DNA from: an uncultured Pseudomonadales bacterium
GTDB lineage: Bacteria; Pseudomonadota; Gammaproteobacteria; Pseudomonadales; Cellvibrionaceae
NCBI GenBank assembly: GCA_947487765.1
Contig: CANKXO010000007.1
Span: 22,180-86,179 of the forward strand
Direction: 5' to 3'
DNA: 64,000 nucleotides
Made by a program: the position numbers and the translations under genes. Shown here piece after piece: positions 24,357-44,093 of this stretch. How positions within the stretch are numbered: the first letter of the stretch is position 1; each line of letters starts with the position of its first letter. Under the pieces are notes generated by a model. It worked only from the letters and a program-made list of their open reading frames with translations, made no database searches and was not told the origin of the DNA.

Positions 24357-25265
24357 ATGAAAGAAATTAATGAGAAGCGAGTCGCTTATCTTTACGAAGC
24401 CGTGACAATGGGGACTATTCGTGCCGCAGCAGATAAGCTAAATGTTGCGCCTTCAGCTGTCAGTCGTCAAATAACATTATTGGAAGAAGAGCTCGCCAGT
24501 ACCTTGATTGAGCGTCACCGTAAGGGTGTCACAGCAACGGAGGCGGGTGAAGTCATTTTACGTTTTTATCGCGAAGCACTTTCCAGCGAAGAAACCTGCA
24601 TTTCTAAACTACAAGCATTACAAGGCCTGCAAAGCGGTCACATTAAATTAGCGATAGGCGAAGGCTTTGTGGGTGATTTAATGTCGGGCCCTCTACCTGA
24701 ATTTTCTCGACGGTATCCCTCGCTAACCTTATCGATTAGTATGGCGGGATCGAATGAAGTGATCCGCAAAGTAGAAGAGGATGAAGCTCATATCGGTTTA
24801 TTGTTTCATCCTGCATCACATCCGAATATTCGTTCTCAAGTTATCAGCTCTCAACCCATTTGTGCGATTGTCTCTCCAGAGCATGTATTGGCAAATAGGG
24901 CTAGTGCAATTACATTGGAAGAGCTGCTGGAATATCCCGTTGCATTACTCGAATCTCAATATGGTGTACGGCAATTACTAGGCATGGCCGAATTTAAGGA
25001 ACGTATTCGTTTCCGACCAATAGTAACTTCAGATTCAATTGCTGTTTTAAAATTTTTTGTGCGTTCTAATATGGGATTCGCCTTTCTTCCTGAATTTGTG
25101 GTGGCAAAAGAAATTGAAGATCAACAGTTAGTTGCAATTAAAATAGATCAAGAAATATTGGCTGGTGGCGAGGCGCATATGATTACTCGTTTAGGTCGTC
25201 AGCTTTCGGAAGGGCCACATTGTTTATTAGAGCATTTGAGAGCTTGGATGAAGGCATTTAGTTGA
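24357..25265 (+). CDS. LysR-family transcriptional regulator
   Basis: N-terminal HTH LNVAPSAVSRQITLLEEEL plus LysR substrate-binding domain. Confidence 0.85.
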   Translation: MKEINEKRVAYLYEAVTMGTIRAAADKLNVAPSAVSRQITLLEEELASTLIERHRKGVTATEAGEVILRFYREALSSEETCISKLQALQGLQSGHIKLAIGEGFVGDLMSGPLPEFSRRYPSLTLSISMAGSNEVIRKVEEDEAHIGLLFHPASHPNIRSQVISSQPICAIVSPEHVLANRASAITLEELLEYPVALLESQYGVRQLLGMAEFKERIRFRPIVTSDSIAVLKFFVRSNMGFAFLPEFVVAKEIEDQQLVAIKIDQEILAGGEAHMITRLGRQLSEGPHCLLEHLRAWMKAFS

Positions 25266-25520
25266 GGCTTTCAAAAATATATCGCTATATTTTGTATAAA
25301 TAATAAAAATAAGCTTGAAATTTATCGTTACAAGCCTAGAATGCACATCAAATTAATTAATGCAGAGACTTTATCTTTGAAGCATTTACTCATATTTACA
25401 AATTACAGCATCGCTTCTGGGGCCGATAGTGCCCAAGAGATACGCTGTGCGTCAATATAACCTGTCTAAGTAAATATAGCTGGCAGGTTTAGCCTTCCAG
25501 TTTTAAAAAGTTATTAAAAA

Positions 25521-25557
25521 CCCGGAAGGCATAACTGCTTTTCGGGTTTTTTTATGC
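25521..25557. terminator. Rho-independent terminator (A-tract / stem / T-tract, bidirectional)
   Basis: aaaaa-cccggaagg-cataactg-cttttcggg-ttttttt. Confidence 0.6.
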
Positions 25558-26127
25558 CCGAGTTTTAAAAGTAAATGATGAGAGTAATTAGAACTTTGCT
25601 CTTATAAAGTTGTTGGTAGTTGCAATTTTGACAAATGCATAAAAATAGGAGAGTTATTATTGAAAGTTAATCAGAGGCTTAGATCGTTTATTTATAGATG
25701 AATAGTGTCATTCCACGAGTAGGGAAAATTTATTTTACAGATAAGTTTTCCTCGCTAAATTATTGTCGAATTTTTGTGAATATAGCCGCAATGGCATCGC
25801 TCGCCTATTGATTGCTAATACAATATAACTTATTGATATATAGATATTATTTCAAAAAATACTATGCCTTGTTTTAATTTTTATTACGGGCTATTGTTTA
25901 AAAAGATTTACGAAACAACACATCCAAGTGTTAACAAAAAAGAGATTTAACCATGAACCGATTACTCGGAATAAATAACCATCATACAGCTTCAGAGTGG
26001 CCATTAAAGAGTCAGCTGCTGCCGTTTAGTAATTGTTATCGTCAAAATCAAGGCGATATGAGTTTAGAGATGTAATTTGCACTTTCCTTACCGGAAGGCT
26101 GCAAGGCCAACCGGATACGTTTTTTTG

Positions 26128-26160
26128 AAACCCGATTGGCTTTGCTTATCGGGTTTTTTT
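26128..26160 (+). terminator. Rho-independent terminator; the module ccggaaggc...tcgggtttttttatgccc repeats the 25521 element
   Basis: cccgat-tggctttgctt-atcggg followed by a T7 tract. Confidence 0.55.
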
Positions 26161-26497
26161 ATGCCCTTCATGGATGAAGGGTACATCGAAAATGCAGGTC
26201 GGCTTTTGCTCCTGCAAAACCGACATTCACGCCATCCATGGCGCTTGAGCAATTTTTTGAGTGCCCAAAGATGGAAGATGAACCCATAACGCTCGAGAAC
26301 CTTTCGAGTATTAAAGGATTAATTTTACATGGCAGTATTTTAGGAAGTTACTCCACAAGGATGTTTTTTAATAGTGCAATGCCCACTTACACGGCATTAG
26401 TTTTTTAACAATTTGGTCGCTTTTTCCGGCATATAAGAAAGGTAAATACATTCTCGGTAATCTCGATGAGTCGTATTTTTTACTTATATGCCAAGTA

Positions 26498-26653
26498 TGC
26501 CCCTATCGTCTAGTTGGATAGGACGCTGGGTTTTCAATTCAGTAACGTCGGTTCGCCGCAAGCGGACCGGTCCAAAGTTATAAACTTTGGCCGTTCAAGA
26601 AACGCAAAGCATGCTTTGCTTAACATGTTTCTTTCACCCATCTAGGGGCACCA
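26498..26653 (+). ncRNA. Long tRNA-like RNA L1. The 5' part is a canonical tRNA-Glu(TTC) (acceptor, D-arm, anticodon arm, start of the T-arm); an approximately 95-nt hairpin-rich insert follows, then a 3' strand complementary to the acceptor 5' strand + A + CCA
   Basis: gccccta (26498-504) pairs 7/7 with taggggc (26643-649), followed by a-cca; anticodon loop ttTTCaa; the insert holds three clean hairpins (ccgc-aa-gcgg; cgg.ccaaagtt-ata-aactttgg.ccg; aagaaac...gcaaagc-at-gctttgc...gtttctt). Confidence 0.55.
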
Positions 26654-26663
26654 ATAATTTGTT

Positions 26664-26740
26664 ACGTCGATAGCTTAACTGGCAAAAGCTCTGGCCTCCA
26701 AAACCAGGCGATGTAGGTTCGAACCCTACTCGGCGTGCCA
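26664..26740 (+). tRNA. tRNA-Trp (CCA)
   Basis: acceptor acgtcga/tcggcgt (one G-U), D-stem gctt/aagc, anticodon loop ctCCAaa (stem has a C-A mismatch), T-arm gtagg-ttcgaac-cctac, discriminator G + encoded CCA. Confidence 0.75.
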
Positions 26741-26749
26741 AACATAAAT

Positions 26750-26909
26750 GCAGTGATAGCCCCAATAGATCGGCAGATTTTTGTTTCATTGAAGATCAGG
26801 AGAGTGCTGGTTCGACAGCTTTGTAGGAGCAAAAGTTGGACGCTTGTATAGGCGGTCGAGAAGCGATTATGCACAAGGATGTGTATAACAATTCCGGCTC
26901 ACTGCACCA
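26750..26909 (+). ncRNA. Long tRNA-like RNA L2. Acceptor-like 7/7 pairing + discriminator + CCA encloses about 145 nt, including a degenerate T-arm-like hairpin and an internal module paralogous to the one in L5
   Basis: gcagtga (26750-56) pairs with tcactgc (26899-905), followed by a-cca; internal gctg-gttcga-cagc; the block tttgtaggagcaaaagttggacgc...ggcggtcgagaagcgattatgcacaagga aligns with the L5 insert. Confidence 0.5.
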
Positions 26910-26916
26910 GTTTTAT

Positions 26917-26993
26917 TTCGGTGTGAAGCAGAGTGGTAATGCGCCTGACTGTTAATCAGGAGTTCGTTGGTTCGACCCTAGCCGCCGGAGCCA
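26917..26993 (+). tRNA. tRNA-Asn (GTT)-like (non-canonical D-arm)
   Basis: anticodon arm cctga-ctGTTaa-tcagg, T-arm gttgg-ttcgacc-ctagc, acceptor ttcggtg/cgccgga (G-U pairs), G + CCA. Confidence 0.55.
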
Positions 26994-27001
26994 ATTTTAT
27001 T

Positions 27002-27083
27002 GAGGGTGTTGAGCAGGTGGTGAGCTCAGCGGACTGTAAATTCGCCGGAAACTATGTAGGTTCGATTCCTTCCACCCTCACCA
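27002..27083 (+). tRNA. tRNA-Tyr (GTA)
   Basis: acceptor gagggtg/caccctc 7/7, D-stem gagc/gctc, anticodon gcgga-ctGTAaa-ttcgc, 10-nt variable region, T-loop ttcgatt, A + CCA. Confidence 0.8.
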
Positions 27084-27090
27084 AATTTCC

Positions 27091-27168
27091 GGGCCAATAG
27101 CATAATCGGTAAATGCCCCGGCCTCATAAGCCGGAGAAGGAGCGGTTCGAATCCGCCTTGGCCTACCA
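27091..27168 (+). tRNA. tRNA-Met/Ile2 (CAT)
   Basis: acceptor gggccaa/ttggcct, D gcat/atgc, anticodon ccggc-ctCATaa-gccgg, T-loop ttcgaat, A + CCA. Confidence 0.75.
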
Positions 27169-27186
27169 ATTAAATGATTAGTTAAT

Positions 27187-27261
27187 AGCGGTGTTGAGCA
27201 ATGGCTGCTTTCGGGTTTCATATGCCCGAGCTTGTTGGTTCGATTCCAACCACCGCAACCA
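27187..27261 (+). tRNA. tRNA-Met (CAT), second copy
   Basis: anticodon cgggt-ttCATat-gcccg, perfect T-arm gttgg-ttcgatt-ccaac, acceptor 6/7 (A-A at 1:72), A + CCA. Confidence 0.7.
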
Positions 27262-27265
27262 AATT

Positions 27266-27356
27266 GGAAGTGTGGCCGAGTGGTAAGGCAGCGGATTGCT
27301 AATCCGTACAGTGATAAATCGTTGCTGCATGAGTTCGAATCTCATCACTTCCTCCA
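27266..27356 (+). tRNA. tRNA-Ser (GCT), long variable arm
   Basis: ggaagtg...ggccgagtggtaaggc, anticodon gcgga-ttGCTaa-tccgt, long variable arm, T-arm atgag-ttcgaat-ctcat, acceptor 7/7, T + CCA; 91 nt. Confidence 0.9.
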
Positions 27357-27382
27357 AAATACTCCGGTGATGCAATTGGAAG

Positions 27383-27486
27383 GCAGGTTAAGGCTCCTGC
27401 AAAACCTGCATTCCCACCATCCATGGTGGTCACATAGCCCACTTAAAATCGGTTTGTTGCGAGTTCGACTCTCGCCGTCTGCATCA
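27383..27486 (+). ncRNA. Long tRNA-like RNA L4. Acceptor-like 6/7 pairing, a Cys-type T-arm (gcgag-ttcgact-ctcgc), a GCA-containing loop and a covarying internal hairpin; no encoded CCA. A degenerate paralogue lies at 26189-26310
   Basis: gcaggtt (27383-89) vs cgtctgc (27476-82); cctgcaaaacc loop; ccacc-atccat-ggtgg hairpin corresponds to acgcc-atccat-ggcg in the 26196-26251 copy (compensatory changes). Confidence 0.45.
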
Positions 27487-27574
27487 GTTTTTCGTGAGGT
27501 AATTCAATTAGCAGAATGCGATTTTCATAAAATCGGCGATAGTGGTGCAAGTCCACTCTTCACGACCGGTTAAT

Positions 27575-27648
27575 AGCAGCGTGGTGTAACGGTAACACAC
27601 CGGACTTTGACTTCGGTATTTCAGGTTCGAATCCTGGCGCTGTTGCCA
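27575..27648 (+). tRNA. tRNA-Gln (TTG)
   Basis: acceptor agcagcg/cgctgtt, D gtgt/acac, anticodon ccgga-ctTTGac-ttcgg, T-loop ttcgaat, G + CCA. Confidence 0.75.
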
Positions 27649-27688
27649 AATAGTATGTTGAGTAGGGTTCTAAAAATATTTAATTTTT

Positions 27689-27763
27689 GTGCGAGTGGCA
27701 GAATGATGATGCGCGGAACTGCAACTTCCGTTTACGCCGGTTTGATTCCGGCCTCGCACTCCA
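27689..27763 (+). tRNA. tRNA-Cys (GCA)
   Basis: acceptor gtgcgag/ctcgcac 7/7, anticodon cggaa-ctGCAac-ttccg, T-arm gccgg-tttgatt-ccggc, T + CCA; 3-bp D-stem as in E. coli tRNA-Cys. Confidence 0.8.
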
Positions 27764-27769
27764 AATTTT

Positions 27770-27914
27770 CTGGATATAGCACAGCCTAGTAGCGTGTTGG
27801 GTTTAACTAAAATACATCCAAGTATTTTGCCCTTCGGGTTCTTCGAAGTTCAAAACGTTCCAGACGTTTTGTGGAGCTCAAAGTTTGTGGGTTCAAACCC
27901 TGCTATCCAGACCA
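27770..27914 (+). ncRNA. Long tRNA-like RNA L3. Canonical acceptor (7/7), D-arm and T-arm + A + CCA, with an approximately 85-nt structured insert replacing the anticodon region
   Basis: ctggata/tatccag; D gcac/gtgt; T-arm gtggg-ttcaaac-cctgc; the insert contains a cc-ttcg-gg tetraloop hairpin and aaaacgt-tccag-acgtttt hairpin. Confidence 0.55.
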
Positions 27915-27926
27915 ATTAATTTAAAC

Positions 27927-28000
27927 GCGGTGTTGACCGAATGGTTAGGTACCTGCCTTCCAAGCAGAGGAAATGGGTTCGATTCCCATACACCGCTCCA
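27927..28000 (+). tRNA. tRNA-Gly (TCC)
   Basis: acceptor gcggtgt/acaccgc 7/7, anticodon loop ctTCCaa (4-5 bp stem), T-arm atggg-ttcgatt-cccat, T + CCA. Confidence 0.75.
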
Positions 28001-28008
28001 AAATTTAA

Positions 28009-28082
28009 TGAAGGTTGGCTTAGTGGCTGAGCACCGGACTTTTAATCCGGCTAGATGGGTTCGATCCCCATACCTTCAACCA
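28009..28082 (+). tRNA. tRNA-Lys (TTT)
   Basis: acceptor tgaaggt/accttca 7/7, D gctt/gagc, anticodon ccgga-ctTTTaa-tccgg, T-arm atggg-ttcgatc-cccat, A + CCA. Confidence 0.85.
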
Positions 28083-28116
28083 ATTACAATAAAACAACTA
28101 AAAGGAGATCGTATTA

Positions 28117-29312
28117 TGGCGATTAAAAAAGTATTGGCGCCGCATAAAGATCAGCGGTTGCCTGTAAAAATTTGGACGGATGATATTGATTACAGCACGC
28201 AGGCTCAGTTGAGTCGTGTAGCGAACTTACCATTCGTTTATAAGCATGTAGCAGCGATGCCTGATGTACATCTCGGAAAAGGCGCCACTGTTGGTTCAGT
28301 GATTGCAACCGATAAAGCTATTATCCCTGCAGCTGTGGGTGTGGATATTGGATGTGGAATGAATGCAGTGAGATTATCTATTAAAGCAAAAGATTTGCCT
28401 GATAGCCTAAAATTGATTCGAAACGGAATTGAATCAGTTGTACCTTTAGGTCCCGGAGGTCAACATCGTGACCCCAAAATTGCTGGTGGTCATGATATAT
28501 CAATGCGTCTATGTACTATTTTTGAAAAACACCCGAAGTTAAGTAAGCGCGTTAAAGTGAATGGGTTTGCGAAACAATTAGGAACGCTGGGCTCAGGAAA
28601 TCATTTCATTGAATTATGTTTAGATGAAAATGATGACGTGTGGATTATGTTGCATTCAGGGAGTCGTGGAGTTGGCAATAAAATCGGTATGTACTTTATC
28701 GAAATTGCTAAACGAGAAATGGAAAAATGGATGATTCACTTACCTGATAAAGACTTGGCTTATCTATCTGAAGGGTCAGAATATTATGATGACTATATTG
28801 AAGCAGTTTCTTGGGGGCAAGATTATGCGGCATTGAATCGCACGCATATGATGAATGCAGTAATGCTAGAACTACGTAAGTATTTACCTGCGTTTACAAT
28901 CACACAAGAGGCTATCAATTGCCACCATAATTATGTTGAAAAGGAAAATCATTACGGCAAAAACGTATGGGTAACGCGTAAAGGCGCAATCCGTGCGAGA
29001 AAGGATGATCTTGGTATTATTCCCGGGTCCATGGGTGATAAAAGTTTTATTGTTCGTGGTAAAGGTGAATCTGAATCATTTTGTTCTTGTTCCCATGGTG
29101 CGGGTCGACGATTGAGTCGTACTGCAGCTGCAAAAACTTTTTCCGTTGCTGATCTCGTATCAGCTACTGAAGGAATAGAATGTCGTAAAGACAGGGGTGT
29201 CATTGATGAAATTCCAATGGCATATAAGCCTATCGATAGCGTGATGGATAACCAAACTGATCTAGTGGATATAGTTCATACACTTCGACAAGTCGTCAAT
29301 GTAAAAGGCTAG
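28117..29312 (+). CDS. rtcB: RNA ligase RtcB (3'-phosphate/5'-OH RNA-splicing ligase family)
   Basis: AMPDVHLGKGATVGSV, GCGMN, GSGNHFIEL, HSGSRGVG, CSCSHGAGR; RBS aaggag 9 nt upstream of the ATG at 28117. The tracked ORF from 27885 is an artefactual extension across two tRNAs. Confidence 0.9.
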
Positions 29313-29358
29313 AAAGGACTTAGCCTTTTCTTTCACCTCTTTCCTCATTTTTAATTTA

Positions 29359-29432
29359 GCCCAATTGGCATAGTGGTCGTGCAGCTGCTTTGTAAGCAGC
29401 AGAGACAGGTTCAATTCCTGTATTGGGCTCCA
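29359..29432 (+). tRNA. tRNA-Thr (TGT)
   Basis: acceptor gcccaat/attgggc 7/7, D gcat/gtgc, anticodon gctgc-ttTGTaa-gcagc, T-arm acagg-ttcaatt-cctgt, T + CCA. Confidence 0.85.
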
Positions 29433-29441
29433 GTTTACATC

Positions 29442-29593
29442 GCCTGATTAGTTCAATTGGACTTAGAGCATCCGCCTACGACAATTTTGCAGGAGCAAAA
29501 ATTGGGCGTCTATAGAGGCGATCGTGAAACGATAATGTGCAGGACGCATATTACAAACGGGAAGATGCGGGTTCGAATCCTATTCAGGTGCCA
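29442..29593 (+). ncRNA. Long tRNA-like RNA L5. Acceptor 6/7 + G + CCA, canonical D-arm, T-arm-like gcggg-ttcgaat, and an approximately 95-nt insert paralogous to the L2 insert
   Basis: gcctgat vs ttcaggt; D gttc/gagc; insert aattttgc-agga-gcaaaaatt hairpin, atcgt-gaa-acgat hairpin; aligns with L2 (tttgYaggagcaaaaRttggRcg...ggcgRtcgNgaaRcgatWatg). Confidence 0.5.
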
Positions 29594-29601
29594 AATTTAT
29601 T

Positions 29602-29678
29602 ACTCTCGTAGCTTAATTGGATAGAGCGTCTGTCTTCGAAACAGAACGGTGTTGGTTTGATTCCAACCGAGAGTGCCA
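29602..29678 (+). tRNA. tRNA-Arg (TCG)
   Basis: acceptor actctcg/cgagagt 7/7, D gctt/gagc, anticodon tctgt-ctTCGaa-acaga, T-arm gttgg-tttgatt-ccaac, G + CCA. Confidence 0.85.
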
Positions 29679-29917
29679 ATAATTATTATTAATAAACCCG
29701 AGAATCTTTAGGTGTGGCCGTGGCAGATTGATAAATTTACCGGGAGTAAATTTAGACGCGGGAGAGAAGCGACGGCGCCCGTAGGGGTTGTAACATGGAT
29801 GTTACAAACCAATGTGCGCTTAACTTTGGCTTAAGTGCCCTTGGTTTTTGGAAAGGGGAGTTCAGGTCGCATCGGTCACCCCTAAAGGTTTTTACTAATA
29901 GAAAAGGAGGTCAAGCA

Positions 29918-30211
29918 ATGAGACTTGCTATAACGCGATCAGGTTTTTATAACGCTGATCTTTATTGCGCTGATACTCGTACAGCTAAAAGAGTGTTGCG
30001 TGAAAAAAATATTTCCATATTGGCTATCGACTATTATCTAGTTGGCCAGGGAAATGGTTGCGATATTATTGATTGGGCTAAAAGAAATGCAGTTTTGCCT
30101 AATTTTATCGTTGTTATTGAACGTAATCGCAACAAACGAGCCTTATTATCGAATACATTACGAAATATAGGTTATCGCTCTGGTGATGATACTACCTTTA
30201 TAAGGCATTAA
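29918..30211 (+). CDS. Hypothetical small protein (97 aa), alternating beta/alpha pattern (receiver/Rossmann-like?)
   Basis: RBS aaaggagg 7 nt before ATG 29918; MRLAITRSGFYNADLY...ISILAIDYYL...NFIVVIERN; the longer tracked ORF from 29795 lacks an RBS. Confidence 0.5.
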   Translation: MRLAITRSGFYNADLYCADTRTAKRVLREKNISILAIDYYLVGQGNGCDIIDWAKRNAVLPNFIVVIERNRNKRALLSNTLRNIGYRSGDDTTFIRH

Positions 30212-30250
30212 ATTTAGTTAAAGCGACCACTATGATTAATTGAGAATAGG

Positions 30251-30814
30251 ATGATGAATATTCAAATTTTGCAGCTATCGAAGTCAGGTCACCCAATGTC
30301 TTGGGTGAACCGTGAAGAAGCCGCAACACTGTATGCAAAAAATAGGGTGTTATGGGAGCTGGGTGACGAAGTTATTCCAATTGTCGGCGGTATTAATCGC
30401 TTGGGCATTCAAAGTCGCTTCGATATGGCACCAATTATTGCTTGTGATGGTGATGTGAAACAACCTCGTTTACGACCATCGTTAAGTAATCGTATGCTGT
30501 TTCGCCGAGACGATTACCGATGCTTGTATTGTGGTGTTCAGTTTAATCACGACGGATTAACGCGGGACCATATTGTGCCGCGTATTCAAGGTGGTTTAGA
30601 TCGTTGGGAAAATGTGGTTGCTGCTTGTAAACGCTGTAATCACAGTAAGGGTGGTCGAACGCCAGAGCAGGCAGGGATCAAGCTATTGGCCATTCCATTT
30701 GTGCCGAATCCGTTTGAGTTTCTGTTTTTGGCAAATCGACATATTCTGGCTGACCAGATGGATTATCTTGCGACAAGCTTTTCGTCAAAGCGAGACTGGA
30801 AAAAAGTGGCTTAA
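30251..30814 (+). CDS. HNH endonuclease-domain protein
   Basis: CLYCG...DHIVPRIQGG...WENVVAACKRCNHSKGG (HNH with zinc-ribbon cysteines). Confidence 0.8.
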   Translation: MMNIQILQLSKSGHPMSWVNREEAATLYAKNRVLWELGDEVIPIVGGINRLGIQSRFDMAPIIACDGDVKQPRLRPSLSNRMLFRRDDYRCLYCGVQFNHDGLTRDHIVPRIQGGLDRWENVVAACKRCNHSKGGRTPEQAGIKLLAIPFVPNPFEFLFLANRHILADQMDYLATSFSSKRDWKKVA

Positions 30815-30834
30815 CTATTAAGCCACCCACATAT

Positions 30835-30862
30835 TTGGAATACAGGTATTAACCTGTATTCC
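30835..30862 (+). terminator. Strong hairpin after the HNH gene (11-bp stem, weak U-tract)
   Basis: ggaatacaggt-atta-acctgtattcc. Confidence 0.5.
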
Positions 30863-30991
30863 ATACCGATGTTTATACGTATGTTGGCGAAACAGCGGCT
30901 CTGGTTCTGAATGCCAGGCTGGCACAGTCATGTTTTATGTCCTGTGTACCGATTCACTAACACGTTAAACAGTATGCTCTGAAAAAGCATA

Positions 30992-31064
30992 GTTTTTGTA
31001 GCTCATAGGGTAGAGCAATCGACTCATAATCGATGGGTAGCAGGTTCGATTCCTGCCTCAAACA
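30992..31064 (+). tRNA. Degenerate tRNA-Met (CAT)-like gene (weak acceptor 5/7, no CCA)
   Basis: D gctc/gagc, anticodon atcga-ctCATaa-tcgat, perfect T-arm gcagg-ttcgatt-cctgc. Confidence 0.4.
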
Positions 31065-31084
31065 CAGTCAGTTTTAATAAACTG

Positions 31085-31127
31085 AAGGAAAAGCCGAGAG
31101 GCTGAGGTTCGAATCCTCATTTGGTCT
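31085..31127 (+). other. Isolated tRNA 3'-half fragment (variable arm + T-arm + 3' acceptor strand)
   Basis: gccgagaggc...tgagg-ttcgaat-cctca-tttggtc with no upstream 5' partner. Confidence 0.45.
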
Positions 31128-31424
31128 ACTAAACCAAATATAAAACAAGAGGCTCATAGCAACGTAATGCTGTTATAGATTATGTTGCGTTGACATTAAT
31201 ACCGTTAATGATGGGTTAAGGTATTGCGTAGTAAATAATAAGTTTACCTCACTATCAACAGCTAAGGATGGTGTCCTAGGGATGGGGATAATCAAGAGTG
31301 ATTAGGTTAGTGTGGAGCAACCGCTGTATTTGTCTACCCATTACATTTAAGTTATTTACCGTACTCATGGCAAATGGGCCTCGCCATTATAGTCATTGGA
31401 AGAAATAAATAAGGGAGAATAATA

Positions 31425-32576
31425 ATGATTCTTTGGAAAACAATCGATATTGCGGAACATGAACGTGTATTACTTTATGTCCGTGATCAATTTAAACAAG
31501 TGCTAGGCCCAGGTCGGCATCGTGTCTCGACCTTGAAGGGAAAAGTTCGCCAGGAAACCTATGATATTACCGAAGTAGTATTCAGGCATCCTAAAGAAAA
31601 ATTTTTGCTGTCACACTACCCAGAAAAACTGGCAATGCACCTTGAGCAGTTTGACTTAAAAGATACTGAAGTGGGCTTGTTATATCGAAATGGCCATTTA
31701 ATGAATGTGTTGGCACCTGGTAGTTTATTTACAGTTTGGAAAGGTGTTGAGGATATTCGTGTTGACGTTATCGATATTAATAACCACTATCAGATAGAAG
31801 AGTCTTTAATTGGCTTATTGGGGCGAGGCATTAAAATTGGTCAAAGCCGAGAAGTCGTTAATGCGATTGCTTATGCAGAGGTAGTTGATGAGCATGTAGG
31901 TTTATTGCTGGTTAACGGTAAGCTAGAAAAGATCTTGCAACCGGGTAGTTACGGCTTCTGGAAATATAACCGTTCAATTGCGGTTAAAATGCTTGATCTT
32001 CGTTTACAAGCAATGGAGGTTAGTGGCCAAGAGATTCTGACCAAAGATCGCGTGAGTTTGCGTATTAACTTAACTGGTAGTTATAAAATTAAAGATCCTC
32101 AAATTGTTGCCTCTAAGGTGAATGATTACGCAGGTTTTATCTATCGTGAGTTGCAATTAAGTTTGCGAGAAATTGTAGGCACACAATCATTAGATGGATT
32201 GTTAGAAGATAAAGATGCTTTAAATTCTGTAATTACTCAGAGTACACGAGAAAAATTAGCGGAATACGGTATTCAGTTAATGAGTGTCGGGGTTAAAGAT
32301 ATTATTTTACCTGGTGAAATGAAGCAGATTCTGAATCGAGTAGTAGAGGCGCAAAAAGAGGCTGAAGCTAATTTGATTAAGCGTCGTGAGGAAACTCAGG
32401 CAATGCGTTCATTACATAATGCTGCCAAGATGATGGAAAACAACCCTGTGTTGTTACGTTTAAAGGAATTAGAAGCATTAGAAAGAGTGACTGGGAAAAT
32501 CGATAAGATTTCTGTCTATGGTGGCCTTGATAGTGTTCTTAATGACTTGGTAAAACTGGCGCCGGTCAAAACCTAA
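31425..32576 (+). CDS. SPFH/band-7 domain protein (cytoplasmic, duplicated N-terminal beta-domain)
   Basis: SPFH core TKDRVSLRINLTGSYKIKDPQIVASKV...QLMSVGVKDIILPGEMKQILNRVVEAQKEAEANLIKRREETQAM; no N-terminal TM. Confidence 0.7.
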   Translation: MILWKTIDIAEHERVLLYVRDQFKQVLGPGRHRVSTLKGKVRQETYDITEVVFRHPKEKFLLSHYPEKLAMHLEQFDLKDTEVGLLYRNGHLMNVLAPGSLFTVWKGVEDIRVDVIDINNHYQIEESLIGLLGRGIKIGQSREVVNAIAYAEVVDEHVGLLLVNGKLEKILQPGSYGFWKYNRSIAVKMLDLRLQAMEVSGQEILTKDRVSLRINLTGSYKIKDPQIVASKVNDYAGFIYRELQLSLREIVGTQSLDGLLEDKDALNSVITQSTREKLAEYGIQLMSVGVKDIILPGEMKQILNRVVEAQKEAEANLIKRREETQAMRSLHNAAKMMENNPVLLRLKELEALERVTGKIDKISVYGGLDSVLNDLVKLAPVKT

Positions 32577-32749: not shown

Positions 32750-34531
32750 CTAGCGAAAAGATACAATCAAAAATATAAGTACAGCAATTGCCGCAAAAAT
32801 CATTACGCGAGCGAAGGGTTGCATAGAATCTGTATTAGATGCATCCGATAGCCATGGTGATTGAGATTCTTTCTGTTGTTGTGACTTAGTTTCTTCCTTT
32901 TTTGTTTGTTTTTTTGCGGTCGCTATTTGTTTAAGCTCTTCTGTAGTATTCTCTTTAACAGGTGGTGCTGGTGGCTCAGCTTGCCACCAGTTTTCGCGTG
33001 GTGCTTCACCGGCAGCGGCCTTTAAGCGTAAAAGTTTATTATTTAATTTGCCAATGCGACTTGGATTAACTTGATAACTGTATTTTTGTTTTAGTTGTAC
33101 TATTTGCTTTTGTAAAGGAATGCCCTTGCTAGGGTTAACCATTGCGACAAAGTTGGCGTAACCTTCTATGGAGCACAATAAATTGCTACTGCTATTGTGA
33201 GAACGATGAGCCCAGTGCTTACCCTCTAGCCCGCTTTTGTCAATTTGATGTAGTAAGGCTCTGAAGCGCTTTAAGGTCTTGCGATCAACGCTAAGGTTAT
33301 TATTCACTACCACGCCGGTCACTTCTTGTTTTTTATGCTTGCGCATAATGCGTGTTTTTTCGGGGTGAACAATAAAACCTTCATCCTTAATAATACTATG
33401 ACAACGCCACAATAGTTTTTTTACAATGCTGTCGTCAATATTCTGTGGATTAATATCATCGCCCTTGTTGGAGCTTGCCGAAAAAGTAACATCGTCAGCA
33501 TATCGCGTATAAGTAAAGCCTAATTTTTTAGCCATCCCTTGTAAGCGAGCATCCAATTTTCTACAGATGATATTGCTAATATTAGGGCTAGTTGGCGCTC
33601 CTTGCGGTAAAAAGCGCTCTCCGTTACTAACAAACCAAGACTGACTATCTAGTTCAACCTCCTGTGTATTCGCTTCGGTGCAAAGTAAGGCTAGTACTGT
33701 TGCAATGTGTTCACTGTAACCTAGAGCTTTAAACATCCCCTTAACTCTTGGATAGCTAATTGTTGGAAAGAAGTTTTTAAGGTCGAGGTTAATAACAATA
33801 TCTTTGCCTACATGAGGCGCAGCATTGGTTACGATAGAGCGCGTGCGTACAAAGCCATGAGCGGCATCATGTAATGCCAGCGGCTCTAAAATATTGGATA
33901 AAACCCAATACTGGGCAAGTTTCAACCGTGGCATAGGGGCAGATATTAGGCGAGTTCCACCGGTTTTCTTGGTCATTTGGAAGCGTTGATAATGACTAAT
34001 CGTGCAGACATCTTTTTGGTAGACTAAAAAACGTAGCTCATTAACGGTAATGCCCATGGCTCTGGCCAACATTTGGCTGTCGTGCAGTAGTGGTAACTGT
34101 TGGGCTTGGAGTTTGTCTTCATCGCTGTTAACTTTTGATAGCCCTATCGATAAACCTTCCCCTACGAAGGTAATAAATTTCTTTTGGATGTCGTACCAAT
34201 TCTTTGCTCGTTGGTATCGTGTTTCATTGCGTTCTTTACGCTTTTCTTCTCTACGAATAAGTGCTTCTTTTTTACGCTGTTTGTGTAACTCCTTTAGTGC
34301 TTGCTCTGGGTCTTGATACAATTGCTGTTGCTTTCCTAATTCACGCAGTTGCTTTTGTAACTGCCCGCGCTTTTCAATAAAGGTTTCTGTTAGTGTTGGC
34401 TGTTCACTATTTTTTGGCCAAAACCCAAGACGTTTCATCTCTGCTAAAATATAAACTTCTTTACCACCTGTTTCGCGTACGCGCTGGTAGAGTTCTTGGC
34501 GGCTTAATTTTTTAGTGCTTTCGTCAGACAT
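32750..34531 (-). CDS. Retron-type reverse transcriptase with a long N-terminal extension and a C-terminal transmembrane anchor
   Basis: RLISAPMPRLKLAQYWVL, NAAPH (NAxxH), NLDLKNFFPTI, QGAPTSP, YADD, VTGVVV (VTG); collinear with Ec86 RT; C-terminus MIFAAIAVLIFLIVSF is hydrophobic after a Lys/Gln-rich low-complexity linker. Confidence 0.85.
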   Translation of the reverse strand: MSDESTKKLSRQELYQRVRETGGKEVYILAEMKRLGFWPKNSEQPTLTETFIEKRGQLQKQLRELGKQQQLYQDPEQALKELHKQRKKEALIRREEKRKERNETRYQRAKNWYDIQKKFITFVGEGLSIGLSKVNSDEDKLQAQQLPLLHDSQMLARAMGITVNELRFLVYQKDVCTISHYQRFQMTKKTGGTRLISAPMPRLKLAQYWVLSNILEPLALHDAAHGFVRTRSIVTNAAPHVGKDIVINLDLKNFFPTISYPRVKGMFKALGYSEHIATVLALLCTEANTQEVELDSQSWFVSNGERFLPQGAPTSPNISNIICRKLDARLQGMAKKLGFTYTRYADDVTFSASSNKGDDINPQNIDDSIVKKLLWRCHSIIKDEGFIVHPEKTRIMRKHKKQEVTGVVVNNNLSVDRKTLKRFRALLHQIDKSGLEGKHWAHRSHNSSSNLLCSIEGYANFVAMVNPSKGIPLQKQIVQLKQKYSYQVNPSRIGKLNNKLLRLKAAAGEAPRENWWQAEPPAPPVKENTTEELKQIATAKKQTKKEETKSQQQKESQSPWLSDASNTDSMQPFARVMIFAAIAVLIFLIVSFR

Positions 34532-34638
34532 CTGCCTGTCTCCCTAATATAAATAAGGATAAATGTTGAGTGTTAAAAAAATGGATAATGATAGTTGTTA
34601 CAAGAACAAATAAAGAAGAGAAGTGCGCAAGATAAAAG

Positions 34639-34868
34639 GGTGCCAGCGTGCTCAATGTTTCCTTCGTAGAGCTCTTAGTACTGGATTGATCAACTCGACG
34701 CGGCACGCCCCTACTATCGCTCATTGACTTCATGGAAGTCATACCGCAATAGCGATAGTAGGGGCTGTGCCGCCCTATGAAGATCAGGCCAGTGACGCGT
34801 GTGTAGTCTATAAACCAGAACGGCGATGCACCGCTCAAATTGCAAGGTAGATAAGTCACGCTGACACC
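34639..34868 (-). ncRNA. Retron msr-msd non-coding RNA (a1/a2 inverted repeats flanking a long msd hairpin)
   Basis: a1 ggtgtcagcgtg (minus strand, plus coords 34857-34868) pairs with a2 cacgctggcacc (34639-34650) over 12-14 bp; about 72-nt near-perfect palindrome at 34701-34772 (cggcacgcccctactatcgct...agcgatagtaggggctgtgccg with inner gacttc-atg-gaagtc). Confidence 0.7.
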
Positions 34869-34931
34869 TGTGCTAGTATAGCAGTGTTGTTAGGTTTTAA
34901 AAGAGCGCTATTAAAATTCTTCATGATCTCT

Positions 34932-36572: not shown

Positions 36573-36643
36573 ATTTTTGCCTGAGAAATTTTTCTGAAAA
36601 TTATGAATCTAATGCGTTTTTGTATAATTTTTATATAGCGTTT

Positions 36644-39600: not shown

Positions 39601-39820
39601 TGGATACAACAACACTATCAAATAGCTTCTCTGCTTTGCTAAGCTCAACAGCTTCAGGGGTTTTAGTGCCTTCTCTTAATTGATTGCCGCGACGCCCGTA
39701 TCGAAAATTAACGAGATAACGTTCATCTTTTCGGCTTGCTAACTCACATAAATCAACTTCATAAACTTTGTCGGAATTGCCTTCCTGATACACCAATCGA
39801 GATTGCTTGATTAGTCGCAT
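36644..39820 (-). CDS. Large WGR-like + alpha-helical repeat protein (MolR/DUF4132-like), retron accessory
   Basis: N-terminal KVYEVDL...YLVNFRYGRRGNQLREGTKT resembles a WGR domain; the remaining roughly 950 aa are Leu-rich helical repeats. Confidence 0.55.
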   Translation of the reverse strand: MRLIKQSRLVYQEGNSDKVYEVDLCELASRKDERYLVNFRYGRRGNQLREGTKTPEAVELSKAEKLFDSVVVSKVNKGYWDREQAKQSPTTTSPTLAGVPSSNLASDDFPFKLIEQILNHLPNEKETKSRSRMIWRLGELGHRDCEPIANAIVPYIKKGHWLEDYSIAWALGRMVATQHKAVLETLRQHKQAQVCHIAFESQLLISDQTSRKALLGSHWQHFPAQFKSAVMEGNSSTAHQQLGALLSHGASDNVNNTNQLLVLCYQLSLAYPILHQALLSQLAIIPLTPGYFRGIRSIYKASELRLDGSVFGLLAQRIETAPAFFRNDWDWAWLPGEGSIKPSKELKKANAKLTFSHRTRDYFRRRSWRVLRRIGQAGDLRYVDMATESLLAINDEHGSKPRTSEVYRWDNSGDNWQRQLISSNEYGPFASFLSLNHILFEHHPGYQLAPSGRVWIKSDESNTDGTSLINGSRTECFAELWDQKPSHALRLLKTSRCELVHPFARRILENQPSFCQKISPVDLALLLNSNYASTCEFALAIVRERIKQDDLSSELLIALLSSSLTEARVLGKQSLLRFKINDDISLLTSLLLILHSDVQSDIKTAVCQQKISGRNAEKLLQAIVDSIFLENSNLSEKHAEYLADFALENLNDAIKHFPLTSLQRLIHDEKVPRKILGAKLLLGHKISYGDIPDSLLQAIHDSSSAEVRGIGAALLGKQADKDLIKQLDLLVGLYCKGDTQERASLLSIFSRLMTNSQQGSEQIENTLLALTFKSEEQPGQHEELIAFFTSLAQSHLTKLDNDMLWRLLQAQSICAQRVGAITLTERNADIFSVKQWAILGQHSDVSVRQFAFQAYEKNVDEIKQYSRDALRILNSNWDDARTFGFDFFRQQYSQEDWSPEIVIFICDSIRDDVQSFGREILQSFFKAEYGPEYLLKLSQHPSNNVQLFVSSFLEEYAAGIPSHILSLQAYFTTALSQINKGRVCKDRILLFLLREAEKDISVATMVMPLLERISLTMVHKDKAALIKAMLKLQSLYPDIASPLTAKKVPIKQPASLGV

Positions 39821-41460: not shown

Positions 41461-41464
41461 TAAG

Positions 41465-42367: not shown

Positions 42368-42864
42368 GCCTTTATTTTTTAATTGAACCACTTTGTATTT
42401 GTTAACCTATAAAAATACTCATTAATATAGTTGTAGTTAATTTTTGTAAGGAAATGTTATAAAAATTATGAATAAAGATATTGATATATAATTTTAATAT
42501 GACTATAGTGCGCGCAGTTTTTACAAATCACCTTTAATCAATACTCTACAGGAGGCTCAAGTATGTTGTATCTAAATAATCAAATCGCATTGTTGGGTTT
42601 GTCTGTATCTTGTTCTTATAGCTAACATTTTTGTTAACGCTATAGCTATCTTTCAGATAAATCCTCTTAGCTAAACGTCTTAACTGTACGTTATAGGTAG
42701 TTTTGCGTAATTTTTTAAGCTAATTCTTGTTGGTCAAATTCTATCGACCATACATTTGCATTTTTTTATGCGGTTAGCGATTAATCTGTATCGCCTTTTG
42801 TTTCAACTCGAAAATATTTTTTGAGGGGGCAATGTCGTGCCTAAAAACATGAGTAGAAATTTTA

Positions 42865-44091: not shown

Positions 44092-44093
44092 AT

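What the first reader, a model, noticed from the sequence alone, without database searches (positions are those of the whole stretch)
26664..31064. Array of about 15 canonical-looking tRNAs with one isoacceptor each, encoded CCA and frequent stem imperfections (mobile-element style)
In order, the array holds Trp(CCA), Asn(GTT), Tyr(GTA), two Met(CAT), Ser(GCT), Gln(TTG), Cys(GCA), Gly(TCC), Lys(TTT), then after rtcB Thr(TGT) and Arg(TCG), and after the HNH gene a degenerate Met(CAT). Most are separated by under 15 nt and all encode CCA. Many carry single mismatches or G-U pairs in stems (Trp anticodon stem C-A, Tyr T-stem U-U, Met-2 acceptor A-A, Asn D-arm). That is typical of phage- or island-borne tRNA arrays, not of core tRNA operons. 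Such arrays can replenish tRNAs depleted by anticodon nucleases, which fits the repair genes alongside.
Basis: seen in the sequence. Interest (0 to 1): 0.7.

Follow-up and report, generated by a model that had tools for sequence, protein, structure and literature searches.

The report
Accessory tRNA array with interrupted genes
This is a horizontally acquired spare-tRNA operon inside an RNA-repair gene island, ordinary in kind, but its "gaps" are six more tRNA genes split in their loops by small, conserved hairpin elements not described before in bacterial tRNA genes.

Summary
The tRNA array is real. ARAGORN finds 14 tRNA genes on the + strand at 26664-31065, all above the Rfam threshold, and 12 of the 14 encode CCA. 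It fits the known accessory "L-array" kind. It is linked to rtcB and an HNH nuclease, it varies or is absent in close relatives, and it lies in an RNA-repair island (cRec-like ORF, CCA enzyme, RlaP, RtcB2-PrfH).

They hold six more tRNA-derived genes (Glu, Phe, Leu-TAA, an unassigned one, Arg-ACG, His). Each is interrupted in its D-, anticodon- or T-loop by a 49-81 nt structured insert.

Class A (about 76 nt, four hairpins, GGA loops) shows strong covariation on the tRNA strand. Its presence varies among relatives, and the junctions are seamless. Class B (49 nt) occurs on at least 120 metagenome contigs, never in a tRNA there.

The inserts are most likely selfish hairpin repeats that inactivate their hosts. 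Three of the six window hosts are already decayed. RtcB-dependent splicing is not excluded but lacks a BHB motif or an endonuclease gene.

The parts
25315..25560 (+). Leader unit 1: promoter-like site (25315-25342), 39-aa leader ORF (25341-25460), terminator-like hairpin plus T-run (25516-25555)
   Evidence: I21; weak Rfam His_leader hit of 29.6 bits against a gathering score of 49. Its role as an attenuator is inferred.
25953..26165 (+). Leader unit 2: 40-aa ORF (19 of 20 amino-acid types) plus terminator-like hairpin CGGGTTTTTTTATGCC
   Evidence: The motif and a preceding small ORF are conserved in L001, L089, L090, L091 and L094.
26165..26410 (+). GGA-hairpin-rich leader RNA (loops UGGA, AGGA, AAGGAU). 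A class B copy (26198-26246) sits inside the AGGA loop of one hairpin.
   Evidence: fold z-score -4.3; the B copy is absent at this site in L089
26499..26653 (+). tRNA-Glu(TTC) gene interrupted in the T-loop by an 81-nt three-hairpin insert (26556-26636)
   Evidence: in-silico deletion restores a tRNA-Glu call; the L089 orthologue is intact; the insert has no second copy in the data held
26664..26740 (+). tRNA-Trp(CCA), encodes CCA
26749..26909 (+). Phe(GAA)-derived gene 'b'. It carries class A (26816-26891) in the T-loop after nt 58 and a remnant of class B (26772-26782). The D and anticodon arms are decayed, so it is a pseudogene here.
   Evidence: The L089 orthologue is a canonical tRNA-Phe plus class A; L094, L098 and L091 have an intact Phe gene.
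26917..26993 (+). tRNA-Asn(GTT), CCA, weak D-arm
27002..27083 (+). tRNA-Tyr(GTA), CCA
   Evidence: Its L090 orthologue carries class A in the T-loop.
27091..27168 (+). tRNA(CAT) no. 1, CCA (Met or Ile2 type, not resolved)
27187..27261 (+). tRNA(CAT) no. 2, CCA, initiator-like (1:72 mismatch, GGG/CCC in the anticodon stem)
   Evidence: the initiator hallmarks come from established knowledge
27266..27356 (+). tRNA-Ser(GCT), CCA
27361..27486 (+). Leu(TAA)-derived gene 'c'. Class B (27383-27431) sits in the D-loop, and the 3' end is fused to that of Leu(CAA) by a deletion. The acceptor stem can no longer pair, so it is a pseudogene.
   Evidence: L089 has intact Leu TAA, TAG and CAA genes.
   Evidence: Its L094 orthologue carries class B in the D-loop.
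27575..27648 (+). tRNA-Gln(TTG), CCA
27689..27763 (+). tRNA-Cys(GCA), CCA
27768..27914 (+). tRNA gene 'd' with an insert of about 70 nt (27805-27874) in the anticodon loop. The insert's hairpins have UCC loops. The anticodon is ambiguous (TAA-like).
   Evidence: L089 and L090 orthologues carry the insert; the L089 copy is 35 nt shorter.
27927..28000 (+). tRNA-Gly(TCC), CCA
28009..28082 (+). tRNA-Lys(TTT), CCA
28116..29312 (+). rtcB (3'-phosphate/5'-OH RNA ligase), embedded in the array
   Evidence: Pfam RtcB, E 7e-128; homologues
29359..29432 (+). tRNA-Thr(TGT), CCA
   Evidence: Its L094 orthologue carries class B in the D-loop.
29442..29593 (+). tRNA-Arg(ACG) gene 'e' with class A (29482-29555) in the anticodon loop at 37/38
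   Evidence: The Arg-ACG orthologues in L094 and L098 are intact.
29602..29678 (+). tRNA-Arg(TCG), CCA
29714..29883 (+). His-derived gene 'h'. A class-A-like element (29731-29809) sits in the D-loop, the anticodon has changed to TTG and the T-arm is destroyed, so it is a pseudogene.
   Evidence: CM hit of 30.7 bits; alignment to the intact L089 His(GTG) gene; not rescued by in-silico excision
29918..30211 (+). 97-aa ORF, weakly cRec-like (cyclic-phosphate-processing receiver domain)
   Evidence: Pfam PF20274, E 7e-4, below its cut-off; conserved after rtcB in L089, L090, L091, L094, L098 and L100
30251..30814 (+). HNH endonuclease (HNH domain of the Cas9/IscB type)
   Evidence: a homologue lies next to a 27-tRNA array on a Methylibium plasmid
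30992..31140 (+). tRNA-like RNA (CAT, no CCA, two acceptor mismatches) followed by an extra T-arm module
   Evidence: It is conserved between HNH and SPFH in many loci with a varying anticodon.

Best explanation
The locus is an accessory, horizontally mobile tRNA operon of the 'L-array' kind, built into an RNA-repair and translation-rescue island. A promoter and two leader-peptide/terminator units precede it. These are probably ribosome-stalling attenuators (inferred). Then come a GGA-hairpin leader, 20 tRNA-type genes, rtcB, a cRec-like ORF and an HNH nuclease, all on one strand. When translation is damaged, for example when tRNA loops are cut by ribotoxins, the operon would supply spare tRNAs for 13-14 amino acids, and RtcB would reseal 2',3'-cyclic-phosphate/5'-OH breaks (inferred from the known enzymology of RtcB and from the Anabaena L-array).

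Fourteen genes are intact. Six are interrupted in a D-, anticodon- or T-loop by small structured repeat elements: class A (about 76 nt, four hairpins), class B (49 nt, two hairpins) and two others. I read these as selfish, DNA-level mobile or gene-converting hairpin repeats. On this reading they colonise the dispensable array and knock out their host genes, which then decay. What is shown: the genes, the inserts, their structure, their presence/absence polymorphism, and their occurrence elsewhere. What is inferred: co-transcription, stress induction, the repair role, and the way the elements move.
For: The array and its scores.

Accessory nature. RtcB relatives at 85-95% identity have different arrays or none, in different flanking genes. 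The HNH-array link recurs on a betaproteobacterial plasmid. The locus matches the L-array description (PMC8421152).

Repair context: RtcB, cRec-like ORF, CCA enzyme, RlaP, RtcB2-PrfH; arfA and a mini-tmRNA-like RNA sit in relatives' arrays.

Inserts. In-silico excision restores a tRNA call in 12 of 17 interrupted hosts. Orthologues without the insert exist for Glu, Leu-TAA, His, Tyr, Phe, Arg-ACG, Met, Thr and Leu-TAG, and the junctions are seamless.

Class A structure: 26 base pairs, 94.4% of cells paired, 15 pairs with compensatory changes, 0 of 500 shuffles as good, and 22 G.U cells against 2 A.C cells, so the structure is selected on the tRNA strand.

Selfish-repeat reading. Class B occurs on at least 120 metagenome contigs with G+C 0.31-0.70, and none of the 125 copies lies in a tRNA. 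It occurs in tandem and inside IS91-family transposase ORFs. Class-A-like elements occur in non-tRNA intergenic DNA (L128, L131). Three of six interrupted window genes (b, c, h) are beyond rescue, against none of the 12 CCA-bearing intact genes. In helix H2, copies within one genome resemble each other more than orthologues across genomes do, which points to concerted evolution.
Against: Every strong class A copy (10 copies at 74.7 bits or more; 12 hits counting two weaker ones) in 1.04 Mb of rtcB-linked loci lies inside a tRNA or tRNA-like gene, at the same structural sites. Copies with an assigned host sit at T-loop 58/59, anticodon loop 37/38, or, for the weak class-A-like copy in gene h, the D-loop. 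Simple random transposition does not predict this.

The L089 tRNA-Phe exons are still perfectly canonical around the insert.

No transposase was tied to the elements. The only hint is a REP-associated tyrosine transposase match at E 0.026, and Pfam found nothing. The elements have no terminal inverted repeats and no target-site duplication.

Expression, induction, aminoacylation and the rest of the genome's tRNA set were not available. The attenuator idea rests on weak statistics (P about 0.01-0.03 for three of nine leader peptides).
Confidence: 0.6

Rival explanations
1. The inserts are genuine intervening sequences. The pre-tRNAs would be cut at both junctions by an unidentified metal-independent endonuclease, and the exons (perhaps also the intron ends) joined by the RtcB encoded in the array. 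That would be a bacterial counterpart of archaeal protein-dependent tRNA splicing.
For: The inserts sit at positions used by archaeal introns (37/38, D-loop about 20/21, T-loop 58-60; PMC4090602). Near-identical inserts occur in different isoacceptors, as in Thermoproteales. rtcB lies inside the array. Seamless removal restores a tRNA in 12 of 17 hosts, and the L089 Phe is canonical. Class A structure is selected on the RNA-sense strand. Removing class B restores the reading frame of IS91-family transposase genes.
Against: There is no bulge-helix-bulge or relaxed BHB at any junction; the elements fold as independent hairpins (manual check). No splicing-endonuclease domain is present in the island ORFs. 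Three of six window hosts are dead even after excision. The exons of gene e carry new stem mismatches. Class B copies in metagenomes have no rtcB within 765 kb and none is in a tRNA. A review states that bacteria are not known to have protein-spliced tRNA introns (PMC4090602).
Confidence: 0.1
2. The inserts are functional RNA modules. Class A and the operon leader would display CsrA/RsmA-type GGA hairpins on a stable tRNA scaffold, titrating or recruiting CsrA. Classes B and D would carry the complementary UCC loops and pair with them.
For: Class A helix H4 reads ACAAGGAUGU, and the leader hairpin reads UUCAUGGAUGAA. These match 10 of 12 and 7 of 12 positions of the CsrA SELEX consensus RUACARGGAUGU (PMC4347634; sequences). 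GGA lies in the loops of H1 and H4 in all nine copies while the stems covary. A-H1 and the B-H1 core are perfect 16-nt complements. Metagenomic B copies lie in GGA-hairpin-rich intergenic RNAs.
Against: No Rfam CsrB, RsmY or RsmZ match. No csrA gene was found in any sequence held. The resemblance to the consensus is a recalled motif, not a binding test. This reading does not explain the presence/absence polymorphism, the decay of hosts, or B inside transposase ORFs.
Confidence: 0.12
3. The array tRNAs, interrupted ones included, act mainly as decoys that soak up tRNA-targeting toxins rather than as decoders.
For: The authors of the Anabaena L-array study proposed this (PMC8421152). Many genes have imperfect stems. 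The 'Leu' genes lack the long variable arm.
Against: Twelve genes keep CCA, canonical loops and 50-65 bit scores. Twenty-three of 26 Anabaena array tRNAs are aminoacylated in vivo (PMC8421152).
Confidence: 0.1
4. It is a core housekeeping tRNA operon, or a prophage tRNA cluster that matches phage codon usage.
For: The U34 anticodons (TTT, TTC, TTG, TGT, TCC) match the host's preference for A-ending codons. All genes lie on one strand with short spacers.
Against: The set covers only 13-14 amino acids. Close relatives lack the array or carry a different one. There are no phage structural or integrase genes in the neighbourhood. Viral-contig scans gave only chance hits.
Confidence: 0.05

Closest known systems
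L-arrays: long accessory tRNA gene arrays (Anabaena PCC 7120 trn operon; Santamaria-Gomez et al. 2021, PMC8421152)
   Same: Many tRNA genes on one strand, non-periodic, patchy among relatives, with a linked HNH endonuclease gene, rtcB in the neighbourhood, some pseudogenes, and a link to translational stress.
   Different: Here rtcB lies inside the operon. The island also carries a cRec-like ORF, SPFH, a CCA enzyme, RlaP and RtcB2-PrfH. The putative control is by leader peptide and terminator, not by direct-repeat promoters. Six genes are interrupted by structured inserts, which that paper does not report (its text mentions introns only for archaeal and metazoan RtcB).
Archaeal non-canonical tRNA introns (Thermoproteales) spliced by EndA and RtcB (PMC4090602)
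   Same: Short inserts at 37/38, in the D-loop and in the T-loop; the same insert sequence in different isoacceptors; an RtcB ligase at hand; seamless exon junctions.
   Different: No BHB motif, no endonuclease gene, a bacterial host, decaying host genes, and the same elements also present outside tRNA genes.
REP/REPIN elements with RAYT transposases (PMC3116915) and Rickettsia palindromic elements inserted in genes (PMC1458961)
   Same: Small, multi-copy, hairpin-forming, non-autonomous repeats with conserved structure. Their presence varies between strains and they can sit inside genes.
   Different: No GTAG-type REP signature, and the RAYT link is unconfirmed (E 0.026). The class B core is conserved across hosts with G+C 0.31-0.70, whereas REPINs are lineage-specific. 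Class A copies in rtcB-linked loci are confined to tRNA loops.
Group I self-splicing introns in bacterial tRNA genes (e.g. PMC13011429)
   Same: Bacterial tRNA genes interrupted in a loop, so that standard tRNA finders miss them.
   Different: Group I introns are 200 nt or longer with a catalytic core. These inserts are 49-81 nt and match no Rfam intron or ribozyme model.
Phage T4 tRNA cluster with the SegB homing endonuclease and RNA repair enzymes (own knowledge; SegB as cited in PMC8421152)
   Same: A tRNA cluster, a nuclease gene and RNA-ligase-based repair of cleaved tRNAs in one genome.
   Different: This is a chromosomal island, not a phage. It uses an RtcB-type rather than a Pnk/Rnl-type ligase and an HNH rather than a GIY-YIG nuclease.

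Membership tests
L-array (accessory long tRNA gene array) | Many tRNA genes, same orientation, close enough to be co-transcribed, non-periodic | tested here: met
   14 intact and 6 interrupted genes on the + strand within 4.6 kb; no repeating gene order
L-array (accessory long tRNA gene array) | Patchy distribution among close relatives (horizontal transfer) | tested here: met
   Loci with RtcB 85-95% identical carry 0-16 tRNAs in different flanking genes
L-array (accessory long tRNA gene array) | Linked HNH endonuclease gene | tested here: met
   HNH at 30251-30814; a homologue abuts a 27-tRNA array on Methylibium plasmid RPME01. Orthology to Anabaena all8564 was not tested.
L-array (accessory long tRNA gene array) | Supernumerary to a complete housekeeping tRNA set | not testable with these tools
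   Only 64 kb of the genome is available; indirect support comes from relatives without the array
L-array (accessory long tRNA gene array) | Silent normally, induced by translational stress | not testable with these tools
   No expression data; leader ORF plus terminator units are suggestive only
Protein-spliced tRNA introns (archaeal/eukaryal type) | Bulge-helix-bulge (or hBH/HBh') motif at the exon-intron junctions | tested here: not met
   The consensus fold is four (A) or two (B) independent hairpins. No 4-bp helix links the two junctions (manual check of junction sequences).
Protein-spliced tRNA introns (archaeal/eukaryal type) | Splicing endonuclease (EndA/Sen) gene | tested here: inconclusive
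   No such domain in the island ORFs (Pfam and NCBIfam); the rest of the genome was not seen
Protein-spliced tRNA introns (archaeal/eukaryal type) | RtcB-type ligase present | tested here: met
   rtcB at 28116-29312 and a second rtcB at 42865-44091
Protein-spliced tRNA introns (archaeal/eukaryal type) | Removal of the insert yields a functional tRNA | tested here: inconclusive
   12 of 17 hosts are called tRNA after in-silico excision. Window genes b, c and h are not, and gene e has new stem mismatches.
Group I / known self-cleaving ribozymes | Match to a catalytic-core covariance model | tested here: not met
   No Rfam intron or ribozyme family at E up to 5 in 25200-31500, nor around class B copies
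REP/REPIN/MITE-like non-autonomous repeats | Multi-copy, conserved hairpin structure, presence/absence polymorphism | tested here: met
REP/REPIN/MITE-like non-autonomous repeats | Copies in unrelated genomic contexts | tested here: met
   Class B: 125 copies on 120 metagenome contigs, none in a tRNA. Class-A-like elements in L128 and L131 intergenic DNA.
REP/REPIN/MITE-like non-autonomous repeats | Cognate transposase (RAYT/Y1), or terminal inverted repeats with target-site duplication | tested here: inconclusive
   ORFs with an NHYHVV motif lie next to some B copies, but Pfam finds nothing and NCBIfam REP_Tyr_transpos reaches only E 0.026. No TIR or TSD at any junction.
CsrA/RsmA-binding RNAs | Several GGA motifs in hairpin loops matching RUACARGGAUGU | tested here: met
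   Class A H1 and H4 and the leader hairpins; consensus from PMC4347634
CsrA/RsmA-binding RNAs | Match to the CsrB/CsrC/RsmX/Y/Z families, or demonstrated CsrA binding | tested here: not met
   No Rfam hit; binding cannot be tested here

The most novel reading that the evidence does not exclude
Classes A and B would be RNA-level intervening sequences. A bacterial, protein-dependent (non-ribozyme, non-BHB) cut-and-reseal pathway using RtcB would remove them from pre-tRNAs (D-, anticodon- and T-loops) and even from mRNAs (the fixed site in IS91-family transposase genes). Class A might be released as a circular RNA carrying GGA hairpins. That would be the first protein-spliced introns in Bacteria.
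Probability: 0.08. Interest if true: 0.92.

Novelty: new variant of a known kind. Interest (0 to 1): 0.55.

Why it matters
The array itself adds a gammaproteobacterial example to a known class and links it tightly to an RNA-repair and ribosome-rescue island. It also suggests a simple, testable control: leader peptides that sense tRNA shortage.

The interrupted genes matter more. Standard tRNA finders miss them, so accessory arrays are under-counted. They also reveal families of small structured elements (a 76-nt four-hairpin element and a 49-nt two-hairpin element) that are in no RNA family database. One of these has a near-invariant core across hosts of very different base composition.

If the elements are selfish DNA, they are a new kind of repeat with a striking preference for tRNA loops. 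If any are spliced, a long-standing rule (no protein-spliced tRNA introns in bacteria) falls. The strain, its close relatives and an rtcB knockout would make that directly testable.

Tried and rejected
Rfam in gathering and E-value modes found only tRNAs; weak YrlA, His_leader and Bacillaceae-1 hits are below threshold.

ARAGORN intron mode handles only anticodon-loop inserts, so I replaced it with brute-force deletion scans.

Viral-contig scans with class A and B patterns gave chance hits inside coding sequence only. A metagenome scan with a 23-nt class A pattern gave 0 hits.

The exact-protein look-up of the window's RtcB was not on record, although a 100% identical cluster exists.

ARAGORN's tmRNA mode found nothing. 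Rfam gives only a sub-threshold tmRNA hit in L098.

BLAST of a class B/IS91 junction against plasmids gave no match.

The RAYT link for class B is not supported by Pfam and only faintly by NCBIfam.

The idea that B always lands in a hairpin loop is only weakly supported: flanks form a stem of at least 7 bp in 8.9% of copies against 2.3% in controls, overall P = 0.11.

The 'pan-amino-acid' leader peptide idea is suggestive for 3 of 9 peptides only.

No csrA gene was found in any held sequence. No rtcB, HNH or SPFH gene lies near metagenomic B copies.

A MazF-type (ACA) cleavage model for the class A junctions was rejected because the joined exons would give T-loops of the wrong length. A gene-60-like translational bypass of B in IS91 genes was rejected because matched take-off and landing codons are not general (sequences).

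Full report
OBSERVATION

ARAGORN finds 14 tRNA genes in the window, all on the + strand between 26664 and 31065. In order they are Trp(CCA), Asn(GTT), Tyr(GTA), CAT, CAT, Ser(GCT), CAT, Gln(TTG), Cys(GCA), Gly(TCC), Lys(TTT), then rtcB, Thr(TGT), Arg(TCG), then two ORFs, then CAT.

Rfam RF00005 scores are 41.6-65.5 bits against a gathering score of 29. Twelve of 14 genes encode CCA; 27493-27567 and 30992-31065 do not. Seven of 14 have at least one stem mismatch.

The Met-2 'defect' combines a 1:72 mismatch with a GGG/CCC anticodon stem. By established knowledge that is the signature of a bacterial initiator tRNA.

THE GAPS ARE GENES

The spacers are 4-40 nt, except for four of 136-176 nt and the two that hold protein genes. 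Reading those stretches showed tRNA halves separated by inserts.

Deleting every possible 20-139 nt segment and re-running ARAGORN recovered three genes:
- tRNA-Glu(TTC) at 26499-26653, with an insert at 26556-26636 in the T-loop.
- A tRNA at 27768-27914 with an insert of about 70 nt in the anticodon loop.
- tRNA-Arg(ACG) at 29442-29593 with a 74-nt insert at position 37/38.

The closest relative I could fetch is L089 (RtcB 95% identical, same flanking genes). Aligned with the window, it shows:
- An intact tRNA-Glu.
- Intact Leu(TAA), Leu(TAG) and Leu(CAA) genes where the window has a chimeric remnant at 27361-27486 with a 49-nt insert in its D-loop.
- An intact His(GTG) where the window has a wreck at 29714-29883 with a 79-nt insert in the D-loop.
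- A canonical tRNA-Phe(GAA) carrying a 76-nt insert after T-loop nt 58, where the window's copy (26749-26909) has additionally lost its D and anticodon arms.

The locus therefore has 20 tRNA-type genes, six of them interrupted.

THE INSERTS

Class A. Nine copies from the window, L089, L090, L091 and L094 align to a four-hairpin consensus. It has 26 base pairs, 94.4% of cells paired and 15 pairs with compensatory double changes. None of 500 shuffles reaches these values, and slid registers give 32-46% pairing. G.U cells outnumber A.C cells 22 to 2, so the structure is maintained on the tRNA-sense strand.

The loops of helices H1 and H4 always carry GGA. H4 reads ACAAGGAUGU, which is the core of the CsrA SELEX consensus (PMC4347634).

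A covariance model searched over 1.04 Mb of rtcB-linked loci found 12 hits, 10 of them strong (74.7 bits or more). All the strong ones lie inside tRNA or tRNA-like genes and all are on the gene's strand. Their sites are T-loop 58/59 of Phe, Tyr, Leu(TAG) and a mini-tmRNA-like RNA, and the anticodon loop of Arg(ACG). A weak class-A-like copy lies in the D-loop of the His-derived gene.

For each host an orthologue without the insert exists in another genome. The junctions are seamless, with no target-site duplication.

Class B. This 49-nt element has two hairpins with UCCU and UCCA loops. Across six copies it has 17 pairs, 88% paired, and 5 pairs with double changes. It sits in the D-loops of Leu(TAA) in the window, Met and Thr in L094, Phe in L090, and a Cys/Ala-like gene in L098. 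It also sits inside the AGGA loop of a leader hairpin at 26198-26246.

Those contigs hold 125 copies and 87 distinct sequences, in hosts with G+C from 0.31 to 0.70. None of the copies is in a tRNA. The contexts are:
- One fixed codon of many diverged IS91-family Y2 transposase genes. Removing the 49 nt restores the frame there.
- Intergenic regions rich in GGA hairpins.
- Tandem arrays.
- Positions next to ORFs with an HUH-like NHYHVV motif. The only family hit for those ORFs is REP-associated tyrosine transposase at E 0.026.

The class A model also finds class-A-like four-hairpin elements in non-tRNA intergenic DNA on two of these contigs (L128 at 51.8 bits, L131 at 38 bits).

No Rfam family covers A or B. 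The 81-nt Glu insert has no second copy in any sequence held.

WHAT THE INSERTS MOST LIKELY ARE

After in-silico excision, 12 of 17 interrupted hosts are again called tRNA. The insertions are therefore either recent or tolerated.

In the window, however, three of six hosts (b, c, h) are beyond rescue, whereas none of the 12 CCA-bearing intact genes is. Gene e has new mismatches at 31:39 and in the T-stem. Its exons are 89-92% identical to L089, while the element inside it is 96% identical. In helix H2, copies within one genome resemble each other more than orthologues across genomes do, which suggests gene conversion or recent movement.

Together with B's wide distribution outside tRNAs, this favours selfish, DNA-level hairpin repeats that knock out dispensable genes.

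Two mechanisms could explain the tRNA-loop preference, and both are inference:
- Gene conversion between array paralogues through the conserved T-arm and D-arm DNA, perhaps stimulated by the HNH nuclease. SegB of T4 cuts tRNA genes, as cited in PMC8421152.
- Targeting of single-stranded hairpin loops. For B, flank pairing is only weakly enriched.

THE SPLICING ALTERNATIVE

The layout mirrors archaeal tRNA introns: the same insert in different isoacceptors, at 37/38, in the D-loop and in the T-loop, with RtcB at hand (PMC4090602).

Several points count against it. There is no bulge-helix-bulge motif. No endonuclease domain is present in the island ORFs. Hosts decay. No rtcB lies near metagenomic B copies. 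I give this reading about 0.1.

A regulatory reading has a good motif match: GGA hairpins as CsrA sites on a tRNA scaffold, with B and D as complementary partners. A-H1 and the B-H1 core are perfect 16-nt complements. There is no test of binding, and I give it about 0.12.

THE ARRAY AS A WHOLE

Accessory nature. RtcB relatives at 85-95% identity show arrays of 0-16 tRNAs with a different complement, in different chromosomal neighbourhoods. A recurring core order is rtcB, a 97-98 aa ORF, HNH, a tRNA-like RNA and an SPFH gene, although HNH is absent from some loci. An HNH homologue follows a 27-tRNA array on the Methylibium petroleiphilum plasmid. This matches the published L-array class, for which linked HNH and rtcB genes and induction by translational stress are reported in Anabaena (PMC8421152).

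Repair context. The window's island also holds the following:
- A weakly cRec-like ORF (PF20274, E 7e-4; the domain is described in PMC7824862).
- A CCA-adding/repair enzyme at 40201-41460.
- RlaP at 41465-42367 (PMC12776372).
- A second RtcB with PrfH at 42865-44789 (PMC9304027).
- A retron-type reverse transcriptase block at 32750-39820, which is an insertion relative to L089.

Relatives carry arfA and a mini-tmRNA-like RNA inside the array.

Likely control. Upstream of the array lie a promoter-like site and two units, each a 39-40 aa ORF followed by a hairpin and T-run. The terminator motif is conserved in five relatives. Two weak His_leader hits and the high amino-acid diversity of some leader peptides suggest an attenuator that opens the operon when ribosomes stall. 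This is inferred.

Coverage. The array's anticodons cover only 13-14 amino acids. Their U34 bias fits the host's A-ending codon preference.

VERDICT

The finding is real and the accessory, repair-linked reading is broadly right. In kind it is a known system. Their nature (selfish DNA, intron or regulatory RNA) is open and experimentally tractable.

Noticed in passing
window 25315-26165: Two tandem units lie upstream of the array, each a leader ORF (39 and 40 aa) followed by a hairpin and T-run. The motif CGGGTTTTTTTATGCC, with a small ORF before it, is conserved in L001, L089, L090, L091 and L094. Some leader peptides use 19-20 amino-acid types (P about 0.01-0.03). This may be a ribosome-stalling attenuator that senses any tRNA shortage.
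   Followed up: partly
window 26165-26410: A structured RNA region (z-score -4.3) is rich in GGA-loop hairpins (UUCAUGGAUGAA, GCAGGAGC, ACAAGGAUG) and ends in a terminator-like hairpin. It looks like an Rsm/Csr-type CsrA-binding RNA but has no Rfam hit.
   Followed up: partly
loci L103-L222 (e.g. L189 3326, L219 11166, L145 7142): The 49-nt class B element sits at one fixed codon (AM|TWAQRLKRVF) of many diverged IS91-family Y2 transposase genes. It shifts the frame and carries a stop codon, and removing it restores the ORF. Its core of about 30 nt is near-invariant in contigs with G+C 0.31-0.70.
   Followed up: partly
window 30992-31140; L060 3696-3830; L091 8732-8860: A tRNA-like RNA without CCA plus an extra T-arm module is conserved between the HNH and SPFH genes in many loci. 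Its anticodon varies (CAT, GAT, TTT, TTA, CAG), so it is probably not a decoder.
   Followed up: partly
L098 4131-4353; L094 1931-2250: A mini-tmRNA-like RNA lies inside relatives' arrays. Its Rfam tmRNA score is 26.6 bits (E 7e-7), below the gathering score of 47. In L094 its T-loop carries a class A element followed by a 5-nt duplication (CCCGT).
   Followed up: partly
L091 5162-5302; L098 4641-4796; L090 4667-4813: Genes for the ribosome-rescue factor ArfA are embedded among the array tRNAs of relatives. The first two are confirmed by Pfam and the third was recognised by eye. The window has none.
   Followed up: no
window 32750-39820 (- strand): A retron-type reverse transcriptase (NCBIfam retron Ec67/TIR-RT families, below cut-off) and two or three large ORFs (one with WGR and HEAT hits) lie between SPFH and the CCA enzyme. 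They are an insertion relative to L089 and are probably a defence system.
   Followed up: no
window 40201-44789: The island continues with further RNA-repair and rescue genes: a multifunctional CCA-adding enzyme, the RlaP nucleotidyltransferase, and a second RtcB paired with PrfH.
   Followed up: partly
L089 5299-5543; L090 5496-5654; L094 2513-2673; window 27361-27486: The array's 'tRNA-Leu' genes (TAA, TAG, CAA) are 74-78 nt long and lack the long variable arm of bacterial tRNA-Leu. Which synthetase charges them is unclear.
   Followed up: no
window 26204-26219 vs 29485-29500: TTTTGCTCCTGCAAAA (class B) and TTTTGCAGGAGCAAAA (class A) are perfect 16-nt reverse complements on the same transcribed strand. 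In general, class B and D loops (UCCU, AUCCAU) are the complements of class A loops (AGGA, AUGGAU).
   Followed up: partly
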